Origin: a bacterium
GTDB lineage: Bacteria > Verrucomicrobiota > Verrucomicrobiia > Chthoniobacterales > UBA6821
Direction of reading: 5' to 3'
DNA: 64,000 nucleotides
Assembly (NCBI GenBank): GCA_021849805.1
Contig: JAJZSL010000009.1
Location: forward strand, 2,804-66,803
A program made the position numbers and the translations under genes. The notes beneath the pieces were generated by a model that was given only the letters and a program-made list of their open reading frames with translations, had not been told where the DNA came from and made no database searches. Below, in pieces: positions 43,406 through 49,732 of the stretch (positions within the stretch are counted from its first letter, which is position 1; each line of letters begins with the position of its first letter).

Positions 43406-44443
43406 TTACGACTTCAAACTAATCCACTGCGCAATGTTCTTGAGTACTCTACTAGCTTCACTTCCTTCATGCTGTAGGAAAAAAGGAACTCCTTGATCAC
43501 TGGAAGTTCGAATTTCTATTTCCAAGGGAACTTCCCCTAAAAAGGGAATAGCTAGATGATCAGCTTCCCGTCTACCGCCATCAGAGCCAAAGATAGCATG
43601 ACGAACTCCATCACTAGGAGAGAGAAAATAGCTCATATTTTCAATGATCCCAAGCAGAGGAACATTCGTTTTCTGAAACATCGAAGCTGCTTTGCGAACA
43701 TCCAAGAGGGCCACTTCTTGTGGAGTTGTTACTAAAATAGCACCGAAGAGAGGAACCGTTTGGACAATGGTCAGTTGGATATCACCCGTTCCTGGAGGCA
43801 AATCGAGTAGGAGATAGTCTAAGGTTCCCCAGGCAACTTGCTTTAAGAACTGTTGGGTATAACGACTCACCATAGGTCCACGAAGAACAGCAGGTGCCTC
43901 CTCTTGCAGGAGAAGTCCCATCGACATCAATGAAATACCATGAGCTTTTACAGGAATAATTTGACCATCATCGCGTGCATGAGGACGCTCTCTGGAGCCG
44001 CATAGAAAAGCTACACTAGGACCATACAAATCACAATCACACACCCCCACAGAAGCACCAGAGCGAGCTAATGCAATAGCCAAATTAACCGCAATGGTCG
44101 ATTTACCCACTCCCCCTTTTCCACTAGCAATAGCAATCACCTTGTTAACTCCAGGAATTTGATTCCCAGAAACAGAAGAAGCTAGAGGAGCTTGAATATC
44201 AATGAGGACAGTGATTTCTTCAATTCCAGGAATTGCTTGAAGCGATGTTTCAATCTCTTCTCGAAGTCTCTTGGGAATAGAACTCTCTGTTGTCGAGAGC
44301 TGCAGTTGAACAGTAACCTTGGCTCCCTCTACAATCACTTCTTTGACTAAACCAAAGGAGAGAATACTACGACGAAATCCAGGATAGGCCACTTGCTCAA
44401 GCGCCTGCTCAATTTGTTCTCTAGAAAAAGGGGAGGAACTCAT
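43406..44443 (-). CDS. apbC: Fe-S cluster carrier ATPase Mrp/ApbC/NBP35
   Basis: N-terminal DUF59-like domain, deviant Walker [13 protein letters not shown] and [10 protein letters not shown] 4-nt overlap with clpB. Confidence 0.9.
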
Positions 44444-47016
44444 GCTTTTTTAAAAACAAGTTTTCCCTCAATCATCTCTCCAAGAATCGTTGTCCCTTCT
44501 TGAAAATGTCCCTCCAAAATTTCCATACTCAAAGGATCCAAGATTTTTTGCTGGATCACTCGCTTCAGGGGACGAGCACCATAAGCTGGATCATATCCTT
44601 CTCTAGCAAGGTAGGCTTTGACTTGGCTAGAGAGCGCTAGGGAGAGTTTTTGTTTCTCAAGGCGATGGAGGAGTCGTTCTAACTGAATATCAATGATCTT
44701 GGTGATCTGATCATTGTTGAGGCGATCAAAGATCACGATTTCATCAACACGATTGAGAAACTCTGGTCGGAAGAACCCAGTAAGAGCCTCCATGACACGA
44801 TGACGACGCTCTTCCATGCTCAAATCTTCCATGATAAATTGACTGCCCAGATTACTGGTCATAATGATGACAGCATTATTGAAGTTAACCGTACGGCCTT
44901 GTCCATCAGTAATACGTCCATCATCGAGTACTTGGAGAAGCACATTGAATACATCGGCATGAGCTTTTTCAATTTCATCAAAGAGAATGACACAGTAAGG
45001 TCGACGTCTTACAGCCTCGCTCAGCTGCCCTCCTTCATCGTATCCAACATAACCAGGAGGAGCTCCAATCAACCGAGCTACTGTATGCTTCTCCATGTAT
45101 TCACTCATATCCAGACGGACCATGGCCTCTTCATCATCAAAGAGAAACTCAGCAAGGGCTTTGGAAAGCTCCGTTTTTCCTACTCCTGTAGGTCCTAAGA
45201 AGAGGAAGGATCCAATAGGACGATTTTCATCTTGTAACCCAGCACGGGCTCGACGCACGGCATTGGAAACAGCTTCAATAGCCTGATCCTGACCCACAAC
45301 ACGCTGCATGAGGCGCTCTTCCATGTTAAGAAGCTTCTCTCGTTCCCCTTCTTGAAGATTAGCTACAGGAATACCCGTCCAAACAGAAACAACCTTTGCA
45401 ACATCCTCCTCTCCCACTTCTTCTTGAAGCAGCGATTCTTGAGAGGTTGATTTTTGGGCCATACGCAGATTATGAGCTTCTAGTTCCGCAGTAAGTGCTG
45501 GTAGACGACCATATTGAATTTCACTTGCTCTACTAAAGTCTCCTTGGCGCTGAGCCACCTCCAGTTCATTTTTTAAGGATTCAATTTGCTCATTGAGCTT
45601 TTGAGATTTCCCAATTTCTTCTTTTTCTTGAAGCCATCGCGTCTTCAGTAGTGCTGCTTGTTCGTTAACTTCAGCCAATTCTTTTTCCAATTTCTCAAGA
45701 CGCTCTTTACTAGCTGCATCTTTTTCTTTCCGTAATGCTTGGCGTTCCATTTGAAGCATCATGATGTTGCGCTCACATTGGTCAATTTCCACAGGCATCG
45801 ATTCTAGTTCTATTTTTAAGCGCGATGCTGCTTCATCAATAAGGTCAACTGCTTTATCAGGCAAGAAACGATCAGTGATATAGCGATGAGAGAGCATAGC
45901 TGCTGCAATGAGCGCAGCATCTTGAATACGCACTCCATGATGAATCTCGTAGCGCTCTTTAAGCCCTCTTAAAATGGCAATCGTATCCTCAACAGTTGGT
46001 TCTTGAACCATGACTGGCTGAAAGCGACGCTCCAGAGCAGCATCTTTTTCGATATATTTTCGATATTCATCGAGCGTTGTAGCACCAATGGTACGCAGTT
46101 CTCCACGAGCAAGCTGCGGTTTGAGCAAGTTAGAAGCATCCATGGAACCTTCTGCAGCTCCTGCTCCCACGATCGTATGGAGTTCATCGATAAAGAGAAT
46201 AATTTCTCCCTCAGAACTACTGACTTCTTTTAGAAAAGCTTTCAAGCGATCTTCAAACTCTCCACGAAATTTTGCTCCTGCCACCATAGAGCCAATATCC
46301 ATAGCAATAAGACGTTTGTTTTTCAGTGATTCTGGCACATCACCACTAACAATACGGCGTGCGAGACCTTCGACAATAGCAGTTTTCCCAACTCCAGGCT
46401 CTCCAATGAGAACAGGATTATTTTTAGTACGACGAGAGAGTACTTGCATCGTACGACGAATTTCCTCATCCCTCCCAATAACAGGATCAATCTTCCCTTG
46501 GCGCGCTAGTAGAGTAAGATCACGACCATATTTCTCTAATGTTTGATACTTTGCTTCAGGATGTTGATCAACGACACGCTGTCTTCCTCGCACTTGAAGA
46601 AGTACTTTCATGAGCTGCTCCCGCGTCATCCCAGCTTTCTTAAGAAGTTCAGCAACACCCCCCCTCTCCTCGCTTAAGGCTAGGAGATAATGCTCGGAGC
46701 TTAAAAATTCATCCTTGAGTTTCTCCTGCTCTCTTTCTGAATGCTCCAGTGTTTGTCTCAACTCGTTTCCTAAAAATGGCTCTAGAGCTCCATGAACACG
46801 AGCTTGAGCTCTGATATGAGACTCAATTTGTTGAATCACAGAAAGAACGTCGATCCCTATTTTTTCGAGTAGAGGAAGTGTTAAGCCTTCAGGCTGCTCT
46901 AAGAGGGAAAGTAAAAAGTGGCCATTGCTAACTTCTTGTTGACTGAATTTAGAAGCAAGATCGAGAGCTCCTCGAAGAGCTTCTTGCATTTTAAGGGTAA
47001 ATTTATCTGGTCGCAT
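44440..47016 (-). CDS. clpB: ATP-dependent chaperone/disaggregase ClpB
   Basis: Clp_N repeats, two AAA+ modules (GEPGVGKTA; GPTGVGKTE) and a long coiled-coil M-domain between them. Confidence 0.96.
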
Positions 47017-47126: not shown

Positions 47127-48506
47127 TTAAGAGCGATCGACTCCATGGAGCTTCAATCCTAACCTCAAGTAGGTTGGTGTATCAAGGTCCTCTCCTTCAA
47201 CAATGGTCGGCTCACTCTTATCAAAGCGCCCCCGCTGAAGAGGCTTTAAATCCAGTGACCCTTGTATTGATTTTCGTTGAGAGGAGGAAGAGAGTTTCTT
47301 CTTTGCAGTCGGAGCAAGTTCTGCTAGCTGCTCCTCATTGATTTCTCCAAAAAAATCGTTGATTTCTTGGGAAGCATCTTTCTTTTTCTCACTACTTGCT
47401 GTCGGCAATGCCCTCACTGCTGGAAGAGGAGCTCCTAAGTTCGTAGGAGCTAGACTTGAAGAAGAATTCACTGGAGAAGAAACAGCAGCCTCGCTCATGA
47501 AGGATGATGAATGGGAAGAGCGAGACTCCAATGGGCCTTCTGGAGCACTGATGCTCTCTTTCTGAAAAGTAGCAAAGAGAAAAATTTTCAGTGGAGCTCC
47601 TTCTACTTCTTCAGGCTGAAGGCTCAATTGAATATCACCCTCTTCTCCTACCAAGCGCTCTATTTCCTGCATAGCTGTTTGTACTTCAGCGAAGGAGATG
47701 TCCTTGGGACCACGGAGAAGAAGAAAAACAGTGCTTGCCTTAGCAAGAACACGACCACGCTGGAGAAGTGGACTCTTCAGTGTCCGCTCCAAAGCTTCAT
47801 GAAGGCGATTAGCTCCCTGAGCTTGGCCATAACCAAAACAATTTTTCTGGGGAGTATTCTTGAGTGCTTTTAAAAAATGACTCTTTGTAATACGCACTGG
47901 TCCTCTGTTGAGCATGATGGTTAGAAGAGCTGGAAGCAGAGCAACAAAAGCCTCATCAGAAGCTCTGAATGTTTCGGCCAGAGCCACCGTCGAAGATCTA
48001 GTCACACAAAGACGATTATTATCCAGGAGCAATACCCCATCGCACTCTCTCTCCAAAGCGAGAAGAGAAGTTGTAGCCATCGATTGAGTTTTCTTTCCTT
48101 CAAAAGCGAAAGGAAGACTCACGCAAGCAAGAGTCACTTTCTTTGCAGCTTTGCAAAAAGCGGCAAGAGCAGGAAGAAATGTTGATCCAAAATCGCCACC
48201 AAGCCCTCCAAGAAGAATCAGAAAAGAAGCTTTCTTGATTTCTTCAAAAAGACCTGGAAGAAGTACTCCCATCTTCTCAAGAGTCAGGGGCTGAGCAGCA
48301 GCGACACTAGCAGGAAGAGCAAGTTGATGAGGCACGACGGAAGCTCCTAGTGACTCTGCATCATTATTCAGAGCAATAAGTCCTGGAAAAGAGGGCGTGG
48401 AGAGTAACAAACGATCCAAAAAATTCACTCCTGCATTCCCAACCCCAATAATACGATAGGAAGGAGTTGAGAGCTGAGAGTTGGAAGAAGAGGAAAAGTG
48501 ACTCAT
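47127..48506 (-). CDS. ftsZ: FtsZ-like cell division protein with degenerate GTPase motifs
   Basis: Occupies the dcw position after ftsA. It has an FtsZ-like scaffold (YRIIGVGNAGVNFL, LPFAFEGKK, NNRL) and the C-terminal peptide EDLDTPTYLR, but the tubulin signature reads GGLGGDFGS. Confidence 0.75.
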   Translation of the reverse strand: MSHFSSSSNSQLSTPSYRIIGVGNAGVNFLDRLLLSTPSFPGLIALNNDAESLGASVVPHQLALPASVAAAQPLTLEKMGVLLPGLFEEIKKASFLILLGGLGGDFGSTFLPALAAFCKAAKKVTLACVSLPFAFEGKKTQSMATTSLLALERECDGVLLLDNNRLCVTRSSTVALAETFRASDEAFVALLPALLTIMLNRGPVRITKSHFLKALKNTPQKNCFGYGQAQGANRLHEALERTLKSPLLQRGRVLAKASTVFLLLRGPKDISFAEVQTAMQEIERLVGEEGDIQLSLQPEEVEGAPLKIFLFATFQKESISAPEGPLESRSSHSSSFMSEAAVSSPVNSSSSLAPTNLGAPLPAVRALPTASSEKKKDASQEINDFFGEINEEQLAELAPTAKKKLSSSSQRKSIQGSLDLKPLQRGRFDKSEPTIVEGEDLDTPTYLRLGLKLHGVDRS

Positions 48507-48514
48507 AGAACTGA

Positions 48515-49732
48515 TTACTTTTTTCCAAAAAAACCGCCAAAGACTCCTACAATCTTAGAGAGCAAATTCTCTTGTGGAATTTGGCAATAAACAGCATTAG
48601 CATATTTGGTAAGCCCGATTGCTGTAGAAAACTCAGGATTTTCAAAAGCAGAAGTAGGACCTGAAACATGAGTAGCAGCAGGAAGAAAAACGGGGAGTTG
48701 AAAAATATCTTCCGTTAATTTTTTAATTCCACGCAACTTTGAGCACCCTCCAGTGAGCATAATACCAGCACCAAGTAGATCCAAATGGCAAGCGCGTTCC
48801 ACATCACGGCGTAATAATTCCAAGAGCTCTTGCATACGAGCATTCATAATTGTATTGAGAGCATGACGCTCAATCTCACACCCGGAGAAACCAGCATCAT
48901 TTTTTAAGCTGATCTTCTCTCCGGGAAGCGAATCACTGAGCAGGAGTGATCCTTCTTCAATTTTTAAAAGCTCCGAGCGTACAATAGGAAGCCTCAGACC
49001 AATGGAGATATCGTTGGTGAGGTGATCTCCTCCAAGAGCTAAGACACCGCTATGCCGGACAGCTCCATCAAGATAGAGGAGAAAATCTGTTGTTCCTCCA
49101 CCAAGATCGATAACAAGTGCTCCTTGATCTTTTTGCTGCTGAGTGAGAACAACCTGAGCAGAAGCAAGAGAACTCATAACAATATCCTCGACATCAAGGT
49201 GGAGAGACTCCAGAGAGCGCAAGGTATTTTGGATTCGGTTCTTCACCCCATGAACAATATGGAAGTCAGCTTCTAAGCGTGAGGCGACCATCCCTAGAGG
49301 ATCAATAACATTACGATTTCCATCCACATGGTAGCTCTGAATAATTGTATGCAGAAAAGCATTAGCAGCAGGAAGAGTCACTTCTTTGGCATTCAACTCA
49401 ACCATACGAAGATCTTCCTCATTAATAGCCTCATGATCGTTAGGTAAAACCCACGTTCCACGATTATTGAAACTTTGCAAATGTCCTCCGGAAATCGCCA
49501 CCCAAACACTACGAATCTCAACATTACTCTTCTCCTCAGCATCAATAATGGCTTCCCTCACGCATTCTGTTGCTGAATTGAAGTCGATGATTTCCCCTTT
49601 GCGCACACCACGCGAAGGAGTTTCTCCCACTCCTAAAATATGAATCGAACCGTCGGGCAATCCTTCGGCAACGACTACACAAATTTTAGTAGTACCGATC
49701 TCCAAACCGACAAAGAGTTGTTCGCGTGGCAT
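48515..49732 (-). CDS. ftsA: Cell division protein FtsA
   Basis: Actin-fold phosphate motifs (GLEIGTTKICVVV, VIDLGGGTTDF, LTGGCSKLRGI) and a C-terminal amphipathic membrane-targeting helix (LLSKIVGVFGGFFGKK). Confidence 0.93.
   Translation of the reverse strand: MPREQLFVGLEIGTTKICVVVAEGLPDGSIHILGVGETPSRGVRKGEIIDFNSATECVREAIIDAEEKSNVEIRSVWVAISGGHLQSFNNRGTWVLPNDHEAINEEDLRMVELNAKEVTLPAANAFLHTIIQSYHVDGNRNVIDPLGMVASRLEADFHIVHGVKNRIQNTLRSLESLHLDVEDIVMSSLASAQVVLTQQQKDQGALVIDLGGGTTDFLLYLDGAVRHSGVLALGGDHLTNDISIGLRLPIVRSELLKIEEGSLLLSDSLPGEKISLKNDAGFSGCEIERHALNTIMNARMQELLELLRRDVERACHLDLLGAGIMLTGGCSKLRGIKKLTEDIFQLPVFLPAATHVSGPTSAFENPEFSTAIGLTKYANAVYCQIPQENLLSKIVGVFGGFFGKK

What the first reader, a model, noticed from the sequence alone, without database searches (positions are those of the whole stretch)
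47127..48506. FtsZ in the dcw slot has eroded GTP-binding and catalytic motifs but keeps the FtsA-binding tail
The 459-aa ORF directly follows ftsQ-ftsA, and its spacing matches FtsZ by eye. It keeps PFAFEGKK (the T5 PFxFEG motif) and a disordered Ser-rich linker. It also keeps the conserved C-terminal peptide EDLDTPTYLR (compare B. subtilis LDIPTFLR, E. coli LDIPAFLR). The nucleotide-contact loops are not canonical. T1 GGGGGN reads GNAGVN. The Gly-rich T3 loop (GLGAGANP) is replaced by PASVAAAQPL. The tubulin signature GGGTG(T/S)G reads LGGDFGS. The T7 synergy loop NxDxxD reads RITKSHF, with no acidic residues. A protein like this would be expected to bind FtsA but to hydrolyse GTP poorly or not at all. 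Chlamydiae and most Planctomycetes have lost FtsZ entirely, so this could be an intermediate or repurposed state of the divisome. Alternatively, a second canonical ftsZ may lie elsewhere in the genome.
Basis: partly seen in the sequence, partly recalled or inferred. Interest (0 to 1): 0.78.

Follow-up and report, generated by a model that had tools for sequence, protein, structure and literature searches.

The report
Conserved FtsZ variant lacking GTPase loops
The cell-division gene ftsZ of this uncultured freshwater verrucomicrobium belongs to a conserved variant, under purifying selection, that has lost one GTP-contacting loop (T3) and the catalytic residues of another (T7) but keeps the guanine pocket and the FtsA-binding tail. 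It is therefore a candidate for a division ring that works with little or no GTP hydrolysis.

Summary
It is the FtsZ homologue in the ddl-ftsQ-ftsA-ftsZ slot, and its T1, T3, T4 and T7 motifs are non-canonical. T5, a Ser-rich disordered linker and the C-terminal FtsA-binding peptide are kept.

"Eroded" is the wrong word. All 120 closest database proteins share T1 G-N-A-G, a deleted T3 loop and T7 GPV[KR]I. So do the 35 matched stretches (about 31 MAGs) among the species genomes, all uncultured Chthoniobacterales/"Spartobacteria" MAGs, always in the same gene order. dN/dS is about 0.10 for the core and 0.03 for the tail. The ribose and guanine contacts (E136, N163, F180, D184) are invariant. 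T1 copies alpha-tubulin's G-Q-A-G-V-Q.

The clade is monophyletic and nested among verrucomicrobial FtsZs with an intact T3. The window's subclade has additionally lost the last catalytic Asp (H210), the R142-equivalent and the T4 Thr.

Best reading: this is the lineage's orthologous FtsZ. It probably still binds nucleotide, hydrolyses poorly or not at all, and acts as an FtsA-tethered scaffold. I could not test for a second ftsZ elsewhere in the genome. I found no description of it in the searchable literature. I rate it a new variant of a known kind.

The parts
47127..48506 (-). ftsZ variant, 459 aa plus stop codon
   Evidence: ORF and translation. Pfam Tubulin and FtsZ_C, TIGR00065 at 89 bits. 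FtsZ fold.
47568..48458 (-). Globular FtsZ core, residues 17-313 (GTPase-type N domain plus C domain)
   Evidence: AF2 pLDDT mostly above 90 with FtsZ-like secondary structure. Foldseek TM 0.74-0.82 to FtsZ structures. Coordinates checked.
48423..48446 (-). T1 loop GVGNAGVN (canonical GVGGGGGN). G-N-A-G is invariant in the family and matches the alpha-tubulin pattern.
48354..48368 (-). T2 NNDAE (canonical NTDAQ). N47 and D49 are invariant.
48288..48314 (-). Remnant of the T3 region, PASVAAAQP. The Gly-rich gamma-phosphate loop GLGAGxxP is deleted.
   Evidence: Gap in the HMMER alignment to Mtb FtsZ. Deleted in all 120 homologues but intact in the sister groups.
48180..48200 (-). T4 / tubulin signature position, reading GGDFGST (canonical GGGTG[ST]G)
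   Evidence: This is the most variable motif in the window's subclade (entropy 1.01).
48096..48113 (-). T5 PFAFEG, with invariant ribose-contact E136
47955..48020 (-). T6 to H7: N163, F180 and D184, the guanine contacts of canonical FtsZ. All are invariant in the family.
   Evidence: The numbering coincides with M. tuberculosis FtsZ.
47874..47903 (-). T7 loop GPVRITKSHF (canonical GLxNxDFADV). The equivalents of N207, D209 and D212 are R205, T207 and H210.
47247..47531 (-). Disordered Ser-rich linker, residues 326-420
   Evidence: pLDDT below 50. 22 of 95 residues are Ser. Omega about 0.42 in the family.
47148..47264 (-). Conserved 39-residue C-terminal tail QGSLDLKPLQRGRFDKSEPTIVEGEDLDTPTYLRLGLKL. 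It includes the FtsA-binding-type peptide EDLDTPTYLR (47163-47192).
   Evidence: Invariant columns Q415 to K452. Omega about 0.03. Coordinates checked.
48515..49732 (-). ftsA, immediately upstream. It is canonical.
   Evidence: TIGR01174 scores 338 bits against a cut-off of 176. Omega about 0.04.
49800..50798 (-). ftsQ (POTRA_1)
50947..51879 (-). ddl
54839..57202 (-). murC-murB fusion gene
   Evidence: This fusion is described for Verrucomicrobia in PMC12283558.
44440..47016 (-). clpB, immediately downstream. This neighbour is conserved across the family's loci.

Best explanation
This is the orthologous FtsZ of an uncultured Chthoniobacterales ('Spartobacteria') lineage. It is a strongly derived but functional form.

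Shown:
- It has the FtsZ fold and sits in the ancestral ddl-ftsQ-ftsA-ftsZ slot.
- It belongs to a monophyletic clade nested inside verrucomicrobial FtsZs.
- It is under purifying selection.
- It keeps invariant ribose and guanine contacts, a tubulin-like T1, a disordered linker and a very strongly conserved C-terminal tail that contains the FtsA-binding-type peptide.

Inferred:
- It is still recruited to the membrane by FtsA and still polymerises head-to-tail, because the T7 loop is conserved in a new form.
- It probably still binds a guanine nucleotide.
- The gamma-phosphate-sensing T3 loop is gone. In the window's subclade every residue implicated in activating the hydrolytic water is replaced: the equivalents of N207, D209, D212 and R142, and the T4 Thr.
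- It therefore hydrolyses GTP very slowly or not at all, and acts as an FtsA-tethered scaffold whose turnover is not driven by the canonical GTPase cycle.
For: Identity and fold.

Synteny: murCB-ddl-ftsQ-ftsA-ftsZ-clpB is found in every locus that has enough flank. Intermediate-type and canonical-type relatives occupy the same slot in other organisms.

Clade-wide fixation of the variant motifs.

Phylogeny: in a neighbour-joining tree the T3-deleted clade is monophyletic on a long stem, inside the clade with G-N-A-G and an intact T3. TIGR00065 scores fall stepwise: 314 and 288, then 202-222, then 89-114.

Selection: core omega has a median of 0.10, tail 0.03 and linker 0.42, against FtsA 0.04. 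In the window's nearest relatives core omega is 0.15-0.18 and tail omega about 0. All ORFs are intact.

Pocket: E136, N163, F180 and D184 are invariant, and motif columns have half the entropy of the core average (0.58 against 1.30). T1 matches alpha-tubulin's GQAGVQ.

Loss of catalytic residues in two steps. Tier 3 (P0031-P0120, the 90 remoter members) keeps the D212-equivalent in 90/90 and K/R at the R142-equivalent in 89/90. The window's subclade (P0001-P0030) has H 19 / D 7 / N 2 / Q 1 / Y 1 at the first position and T/A/V at the second. T108 becomes F in the nearest relatives.
Against: No biochemistry was done. Nucleotide binding, hydrolysis and polymerisation are all inferred from sequence.

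I could not search the rest of the genome for a second ftsZ.

The core evolves about 3 times faster than FtsA at non-synonymous sites. FtsZ identity between relatives (36-59%) is far below FtsA (61-88%). Constraint is therefore relaxed relative to a typical FtsZ.

The new T7 motif (T207, R/K208) is itself conserved, so it could supply an alternative catalytic or binding chemistry.

The neighbour-joining tree is a simple distance tree without support values, and long-branch effects are known for verrucomicrobial FtsZ (PMC9871819).
Confidence: 0.65

Rival explanations
1. It is a fully competent GTPase. The pocket and the T7 loop have been rebuilt, with a tubulin-like T1 and new conserved T207 and R/K208, but GTP is still bound and hydrolysed at a useful rate, and Z-ring dynamics are ordinary.
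For: The pocket residues are invariant and the motif columns are more conserved than the rest of the core. The T1 pattern equals that of GTP-binding alpha-tubulin. Other verrucomicrobial FtsZs in the dcw slot already lack the N207 and D209 equivalents: GLIRIGMDDL and GPLGVGLPDL. FtsZ is essential in V. spinosum (PMC12283558). Tier 3 of the family (P0031-P0120) keeps the D212-equivalent in 90/90.
Against: The T3 loop, which contacts the gamma-phosphate, is wholly deleted. In the window's subclade the last acidic T7 residue varies freely (H/D/N/Q/Y). The R142-equivalent is T/A/V. T4 is the most variable motif, with entropy 1.01 against a core average of 0.69. That pattern suggests these positions are no longer constrained by catalysis.
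Confidence: 0.2
2. It is a redundant or repurposed paralogue. A canonical FtsZ elsewhere in the genome does the division work, and this copy is retained for another FtsA-linked role.
For: Core constraint is relaxed relative to FtsA. Second, divergent FtsZ copies are known in some bacteria, for example CPR (PMC9871819). Only 64 kb of this genome was available.
Against: It occupies the ancestral dcw slot in all of the roughly 30 species genomes examined. Relatives with intermediate and canonical motifs occupy the same slot in other lineages, so it is the ortholog and not an added copy. No second ftsZ lies in the window or in any fetched flank. The tail is under the strongest constraint in the protein.
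Confidence: 0.1
3. It is a decaying gene or a sequencing or assembly artefact.
For: The TIGR00065 score is very low. E. coli FtsZ does not detect the gene by tblastn.
Against: The identical protein is found on 6 independent contigs. ORFs are intact in all relatives. Omega is 0.10-0.18 in the core and about 0.03 or lower in the tail. The AF2 core is confident.
Confidence: 0.02

Closest known systems
Canonical bacterial FtsZ (E. coli, B. subtilis, M. tuberculosis; TIGR00065)
   Same: It has the two-domain FtsZ fold (TM 0.74-0.82). It sits after ftsA in the dcw cluster. T5, T6 and H7 nucleotide contacts are kept. It has a disordered linker and a C-terminal D-x-P-x-[FY]-L-R peptide.
   Different: Identity is about 22%. 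TIGR00065 scores 89 bits against a cut-off of 295. T1 is GNAG rather than GGGG. The T3 loop is deleted. The tubulin signature is broken (GGDFGST). T7 has no Asn or Asp. The conserved tail is about 40 residues long rather than about 10.
Verrucomicrobium spinosum FtsZ and other verrucomicrobial FtsZs (Yee 2007, PMC1845146; PMC12283558; PMC9871819)
   Same: Same phylum and same dcw slot. The group is already described as the most divergent bacterial FtsZ. The Glu/Asp-Leu-Asp-x-Pro-Thr-Phe-Leu-Arg tail type is shared.
   Different: V. spinosum has an intact GGGTGSG signature. The wider group found here has intact T3 and T4 and reaches the TIGR00065 cut-off (314 bits). The window's clade has lost T3 and changed T4. 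Nothing in the searchable literature describes this.
Verrucomicrobial FtsZ group with G-N-A-G and an intact T3 (found here; for example P0122, P0125, P0140)
   Same: It is the sister or paraphyletic group in the tree. It shares the T1 G-N-A-G, the Pro after the T7 Gly and the dcw slot. The N207 and D209 equivalents are already lost.
   Different: It keeps T3 GLGAGGDP, T4 GGGT[AG]SG and the D212-equivalent. TIGR00065 scores 202-222 bits.
Alpha/beta-tubulin
   Same: The T1 pattern G-x-A-G-V-x with an amide side chain (GQAGVQ in alpha-tubulin) matches GNAGVN. From memory: a basic residue in T7 in place of the catalytic acid is how beta-tubulin (Lys254) leaves the N-site GTP of alpha-tubulin unhydrolysed.
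   Different: It is not a tubulin by sequence or fold details. All best structural matches are FtsZ. Tubulins keep T3 and GGGTGSG.
Degenerate FtsZ-like proteins: FtsZl-1/FtsZl-2 of Makarova & Koonin 2010, and the plant ARC3 FtsZ-like domain (from memory, not tested here)
   Same: They are tubulin/FtsZ-superfamily members with incomplete GTPase or T7 motifs.
   Different: Those are extra paralogues outside the dcw cluster and lack the FtsA-binding tail. The present protein is the dcw ortholog.

Membership tests
FtsZ (cell-division tubulin homologue) | Tubulin/FtsZ GTPase-domain and FtsZ C-terminal-domain fold | tested here: met
   PF00091 scores 44.8 bits (cut-off 33, partial match). PF12327 scores 30.1 bits (cut-off 27). 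AF2 model plus Foldseek gives TM 0.74-0.82 to FtsZ structures.
FtsZ (cell-division tubulin homologue) | Score above the curated equivalog cut-off (TIGR00065, 295.2 bits) | tested here: not met
   89.1 bits. NCBI names family members 'hypothetical protein'.
FtsZ (cell-division tubulin homologue) | Tubulin signature [SAG]GGTG[SAT]G (T4, PROSITE PS00227) | tested here: not met
   It reads GGDFGST. The family consensus is GGETGSF.
FtsZ (cell-division tubulin homologue) | T3 loop G-x-G-A-G-x-x-P that contacts the gamma-phosphate | tested here: not met
   Deleted in the window protein and in all 120 closest homologues.
FtsZ (cell-division tubulin homologue) | T7 synergy loop N-x-D-x-x-D | tested here: not met
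   It reads R205-I-T207-K-S-H210.
FtsZ (cell-division tubulin homologue) | Ribose and guanine contacts (T5 Glu, T6 Asn, H7 Phe and Asp) | tested here: met
   E136, N163, F180 and D184 are present and invariant in the family.
FtsZ (cell-division tubulin homologue) | Position in the dcw cluster directly after ftsQ-ftsA, and orthology by descent | tested here: met
   The clade is nested in verrucomicrobial FtsZs. Relatives sit in the same slot.
FtsZ (cell-division tubulin homologue) | Disordered linker plus conserved C-terminal peptide that binds FtsA or ZipA | tested here: met
   The linker has pLDDT below 50. The peptide EDLDTPTYLR lies within an invariant tail with omega about 0.03. Actual binding to FtsA was not tested.
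FtsZ (cell-division tubulin homologue) | GTP binding, GTP-dependent polymerisation, GTP hydrolysis and Z-ring formation | not testable with these tools
   This needs purified protein or cell biology. No ligand docking or multimer prediction was available.
FtsZ (cell-division tubulin homologue) | Being the only, or the main, FtsZ of the genome | not testable with these tools
   Only 64 kb of the MAG and flanks of 10 kb or less in relatives could be read. No second copy lies there.

The most novel reading that the evidence does not exclude
A widespread free-living bacterial lineage divides with an FtsZ that is naturally GTPase-dead. Nucleotide, if bound at all, would serve only as a structural cofactor, as at the tubulin N-site. 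The Z-ring would then be a static or FtsA-driven scaffold rather than a treadmilling GTPase polymer. That would be a stable evolutionary half-way state between canonical FtsZ division and the FtsZ-less division of Chlamydiae and Planctomycetes.
Probability: 0.3. Interest if true: 0.8.

Novelty: new variant of a known kind. Interest (0 to 1): 0.6.

Why it matters
GTP hydrolysis by FtsZ powers treadmilling, which is thought to organise septal wall synthesis. Whether hydrolysis is truly indispensable is usually probed with laboratory mutants.

Here nature supplies a graded series in one phylum, all in the same genomic slot:
- canonical motifs;
- then loss of N207 and D209;
- then T3 deleted;
- then every catalytic residue replaced.

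The last stages are conserved across abundant freshwater bacteria. That makes the question directly testable with a few recombinant proteins. It also offers a concrete model for how the PVC superphylum could have moved towards FtsZ-independent division.

There is a practical point too. The equivalog model NCBI uses to name FtsZ scores this protein below its cut-off, and NCBI labels several family members 'hypothetical protein'. Surveys could therefore wrongly score these genomes as FtsZ-less.

Tried and rejected
1. Second ftsZ. Neither the MAG nor the relatives' genomes can be searched whole with these tools. tblastn of canonical, intermediate and variant FtsZs against the window and all fetched loci found only the one gene.

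2. Taxon names for the intermediate group. Cluster look-ups gave no organism names, and a second homologue search also returned none.

3. Pilhofer et al. 2008 (J Bacteriol; PMC2347405) is the paper most likely to have looked at Chthoniobacter ftsZ. It is not held. Prior description of related sequences cannot be fully excluded.

4. Foldseek against AFDB was unavailable.

5. Hypothesis that a T4 Glu pairs with the new T7 Lys/Arg to replace the nucleotide bridge. This fits tier 3 (P0031-P0120), where T4 is GGETGSF and T7 is GPVKITR. I dropped it as a general mechanism because the T4 acid is not conserved in the window's subclade, where that position is S/G/D/V/E/R.

6. The sub-threshold ZapD hit of the neighbouring 634-aa ORF (E 0.005, 17 bits against a cut-off of 27). 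I treated it as noise, since the protein is low-complexity.

7. dN/dS between the window gene and its nearest genome relative (59% identity) is saturated. I used closer pairs within the family instead.
Full report
**What is there.**

The ORF at 47127-48506 is real, but it lies on the minus strand. It encodes 459 aa.

On that strand the gene order is:
- a murC-murB fusion (54839-57202);
- ddl (50947-51879);
- ftsQ (49800-50798);
- ftsA (48515-49732);
- this gene;
- clpB (44440-47016).

The window is part of contig DAIECT010000039.1 of MAG GCA_027452665.1. Its GC content is 41%.

The protein is an FtsZ homologue, but a remote one:
- Pfam Tubulin scores 44.8 bits and matches only the second half of the profile.
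- FtsZ_C scores 30.1 bits.
- The NCBI equivalog model TIGR00065 gives 89 bits against a cut-off of 295.
- phmmer against PDB sequences gives about 85 bits to FtsZ chains.
- E. coli FtsZ does not find the gene by tblastn.
- An AlphaFold2 model built on a 25-sequence family alignment is confident for residues 17-313 and disordered for 326-420.
- All top Foldseek matches are FtsZ crystal structures, with TM 0.74-0.82 at about 22% identity.

**Check of the motifs.**

I used the HMMER alignment to M. tuberculosis FtsZ and MAFFT alignments to an E. coli reference. I verified that reference against PDB chains.

| Motif | Canonical | Window | Comment |
|---|---|---|---|
| T3 | GLGAGxxP | PASVAAAQP (remnant) | deletion of 5-8 residues, not a substitution |
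| T7 | N-x-D-x-x-D | R205-I-T207-K-S-H210 | no acidic residue |
| T5 | PFxFEG | PFAFEG | intact |

The linker is 23% Ser. The protein ends with EDLDTPTYLR-LGLKL.

**The changes are not erosion.**

The 120 best hits among 5.8 billion proteins have 36-59% identity, with a few local-only matches excluded. The named ones are MAGs labelled Chthoniobacterales or Verrucomicrobia. All share the same architecture:
- T1 G-N-A-G in 120/120;
- T3 deleted in all;
- T7 G-P-V-[KR]-I-[TN]-[RK];
- T4 GG-x-x-x-S-x.

A scan of one genome per GTDB species found 35 matching stretches, from about 31 MAGs. All are uncultured MAGs labelled Spartobacteria, Chthoniobacterales or 'Xiphi-', and most come from lakes.

Wherever the flank was long enough, the gene order is murCB-ddl-ftsQ-ftsA-ftsZ-clpB. 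All of these ORFs are intact.

Nei-Gojobori dN/dS on 11 unsaturated pairs gave these medians:

| Region | Median omega |
|---|---|
| Globular core | 0.10 |
| Linker | 0.42 |
| C-terminal tail | 0.03 |
| FtsA (same pairs) | 0.04 |

In the window's closest relatives (P0003-P0005), core omega is 0.15-0.18 and tail omega about 0.

So the gene is under purifying selection. Its core is clearly less constrained than FtsA. Non-synonymous divergence is about 3 times higher. FtsZ identity between relatives is 36-59%, against 61-88% for FtsA. From general knowledge, the usual expectation is that FtsZ is the more conserved of the two; I ran no control on other lineages.

**Where it comes from.**

An exhaustive HMMER search of 1.84 billion cluster representatives shows a continuum of scores. 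Motif extraction and a neighbour-joining tree of the core resolve this into a nested series:

1. A few relatives have fully canonical motifs. P0160 is one, and it sits in a ddl-ftsQ-ftsA-ftsZ slot.
2. A large PVC/verrucomicrobial group has T1 GGAG, T3 GLGAGGDP, T4 GGGTGSG and T7 GLIRIGMDDL. The N207 and D209 equivalents are already gone.
3. A group has T1 GNAG, T3 intact, T4 GGGT[AG]SG and T7 GPLGVGLPDL. P0140 is one, in an ftsW-murG-murCB-ddl-ftsQ-ftsA-ftsZ cluster.
4. The monophyletic T3-deleted clade sits on a long stem inside group 3.

TIGR00065 scores fall in step: 314 and 288, then 202-222, then 89-114.

Within the T3-deleted clade there are two tiers:

| Position (E. coli numbering) | Remoter members (P0031-P0120) | Window's subclade (P0001-P0030) |
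|---|---|---|
| D212-equivalent | D in 90/90 | H 19, D 7, N 2, Q 1, Y 1 |
| R142-equivalent | K/R in 89/90 | T/A/V |
| T108 (T4 Thr) | T or S in 63/90 | F in the nine nearest relatives |
| T4 variability | consensus GGETGSF | most variable motif (entropy 1.01 against core 0.69) |

The window protein is thus the far end of a stepwise loss of hydrolysis-related residues within an orthologous lineage.

**What is kept, and what that implies.**

In the 25-sequence alignment, nearly all invariant columns of the N-terminal domain lie in the nucleotide loops. They are G21, G23, N24, A25, G26, N47, D49, G101-G103, P132, F133, F135, E136, G137, N163, F180, D184, G202 and P203.

E136, N163, F180 and D184 align to the same-numbered residues of M. 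tuberculosis FtsZ. From established structural knowledge of FtsZ, these are the ribose and guanine contacts.

Motif columns have less than half the entropy of the core average (0.58 against 1.30).

T1 G-N-A-G-V-N has the same pattern as alpha-tubulin's G-Q-A-G-V-Q, which I verified in PDB chains. That loop is therefore compatible with GTP binding.

I infer that the pocket still binds a guanine nucleotide. The parts that sense the gamma-phosphate (T3), and that activate water from the neighbouring subunit (T7 acids and the R142-equivalent), are gone in this protein. The new T7 sequence is itself conserved, which argues that the longitudinal polymer contact is still used.

The about 40-residue tail QG-L-L---QRGRFDKSEPTIV-GEDLD-PT[FY]LR-G[IL]KL is the most constrained region. 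It contains the canonical FtsA-binding-type peptide. FtsA itself is canonical (338 bits on TIGR01174).

**Most likely mechanism.**

This is the lineage's FtsZ. FtsA tethers it to the membrane and it assembles head-to-tail. It probably holds nucleotide but has very low or no GTPase activity. The ring would then act as a scaffold whose turnover does not depend on the canonical hydrolysis cycle.

Shown: homology, fold, synteny, clade-wide conservation, selection, and the pattern of kept and lost residues. Inferred: nucleotide binding, lack of hydrolysis, polymerisation, FtsA binding, and being the only FtsZ. My confidence is 0.65.

**Rivals.**

- A rebuilt but active GTPase (0.2). The conserved pocket supports it, and so do other verrucomicrobial FtsZs that also lack N207 and D209; FtsZ is essential in V. 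spinosum (PMC12283558). The T3 deletion weakens it, and so does the free variation at the D212 position and in T4 within the window's subclade.
- A redundant paralogue with a canonical FtsZ elsewhere (0.1). This could not be tested genome-wide. It is disfavoured by the ancestral slot, the orthologous series and the strongly constrained tail.
- Decay or artefact (about 0.02). The evidence above refutes it.

**Comparison with what is known.**

Verrucomicrobial FtsZ is already described as the most divergent bacterial FtsZ (PMC9871819; PMC1845146). The V. spinosum protein keeps GGGTGSG, and recent work treats verrucomicrobial division as canonical.

In the searchable library, no paper combines FtsZ with Chthoniobacterales. 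The seven that mention both FtsZ and Spartobacteria do not discuss these motifs. Pilhofer et al. 2008 could not be read.

By descent and fold the protein is a member of the FtsZ family. It fails the family's sequence signatures: T3, the tubulin signature, T7 and the equivalog cut-off.

I rate it a new variant of a known kind, with interest 0.6. If the GTPase-dead reading is right (about 0.3), it would be a natural experiment on whether FtsZ needs GTP hydrolysis, and a plausible waypoint towards FtsZ-less division in the PVC superphylum.

Noticed in passing
window 52037-53941 (+): A 634-aa hydrophilic, low-complexity ORF (rich in S/T/N/Q/E/K) lies on the opposite strand, between murC/B and ddl inside the dcw cluster. 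It has no family match except a sub-threshold ZapD hit (E 0.005). Weak homologues (23-29% identity) lie in the same place in L006 and L007.
   Followed up: partly
L040:900-2942, L041:417-2054, L042:3-1043: In the window protein's closest relatives (P0003-P0005), an unknown 545-680-aa ORF with no Pfam hit is inserted between ftsA and the variant ftsZ. It is 83-93% identical among the three and unrelated to the window's 634-aa ORF.
   Followed up: partly
window 47148-47264 (-), and alignment A1: The conserved C-terminal region is about 40 residues long, not about 10. An invariant block QRGRFDKSEPTIV precedes the FtsA-binding-type peptide, and G-[IL]-K-L follows it. It is the slowest-evolving part of the protein (omega about 0.03). 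Its partner is unknown.
   Followed up: partly
window 54839-59266 (-) compared with L038: The dcw cluster is truncated here. Upstream of the murC-murB fusion there are a group-1 glycosyltransferase and an NAD epimerase instead of ftsW-murG. An intermediate-type relative (L038) has ftsW-murG-murCB-ddl-ftsQ-ftsA-ftsZ.
   Followed up: no
L022 compared with L013, L021 and L031: ClpB is 98% identical (dS about 0.19) between these genomes. The adjacent FtsZ, FtsA and FtsQ are only 67%, 72% and 60% identical (dS of 1 or more). This suggests recombination, or a chimeric contig, at the ftsZ/clpB junction.
   Followed up: no
P0193 (840 aa): This relative has canonical motifs. It aligns to the window ftsZ with two separate regions (residues 161-354 and 593-801), so it appears to carry two FtsZ cores in tandem in one polypeptide.
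   Followed up: no
P0002, P0010, P0018, P0021 and others: NCBI labels members of this family 'hypothetical protein', consistent with their falling below the TIGR00065 cut-off; JGI calls them FtsZ. Presence/absence surveys could score these genomes as lacking FtsZ.
   Followed up: partly
window 44440-47016 (-) and loci L002-L036: clpB directly follows ftsZ in most family loci whose downstream flank was fetched. The intermediate-type and canonical-type loci L038 and L043 have other genes downstream.
   Followed up: no
window 61670-62128 (+): A small PIN-domain ORF of 152 aa with a GTG start, possibly a toxin of a toxin-antitoxin pair.
   Followed up: no
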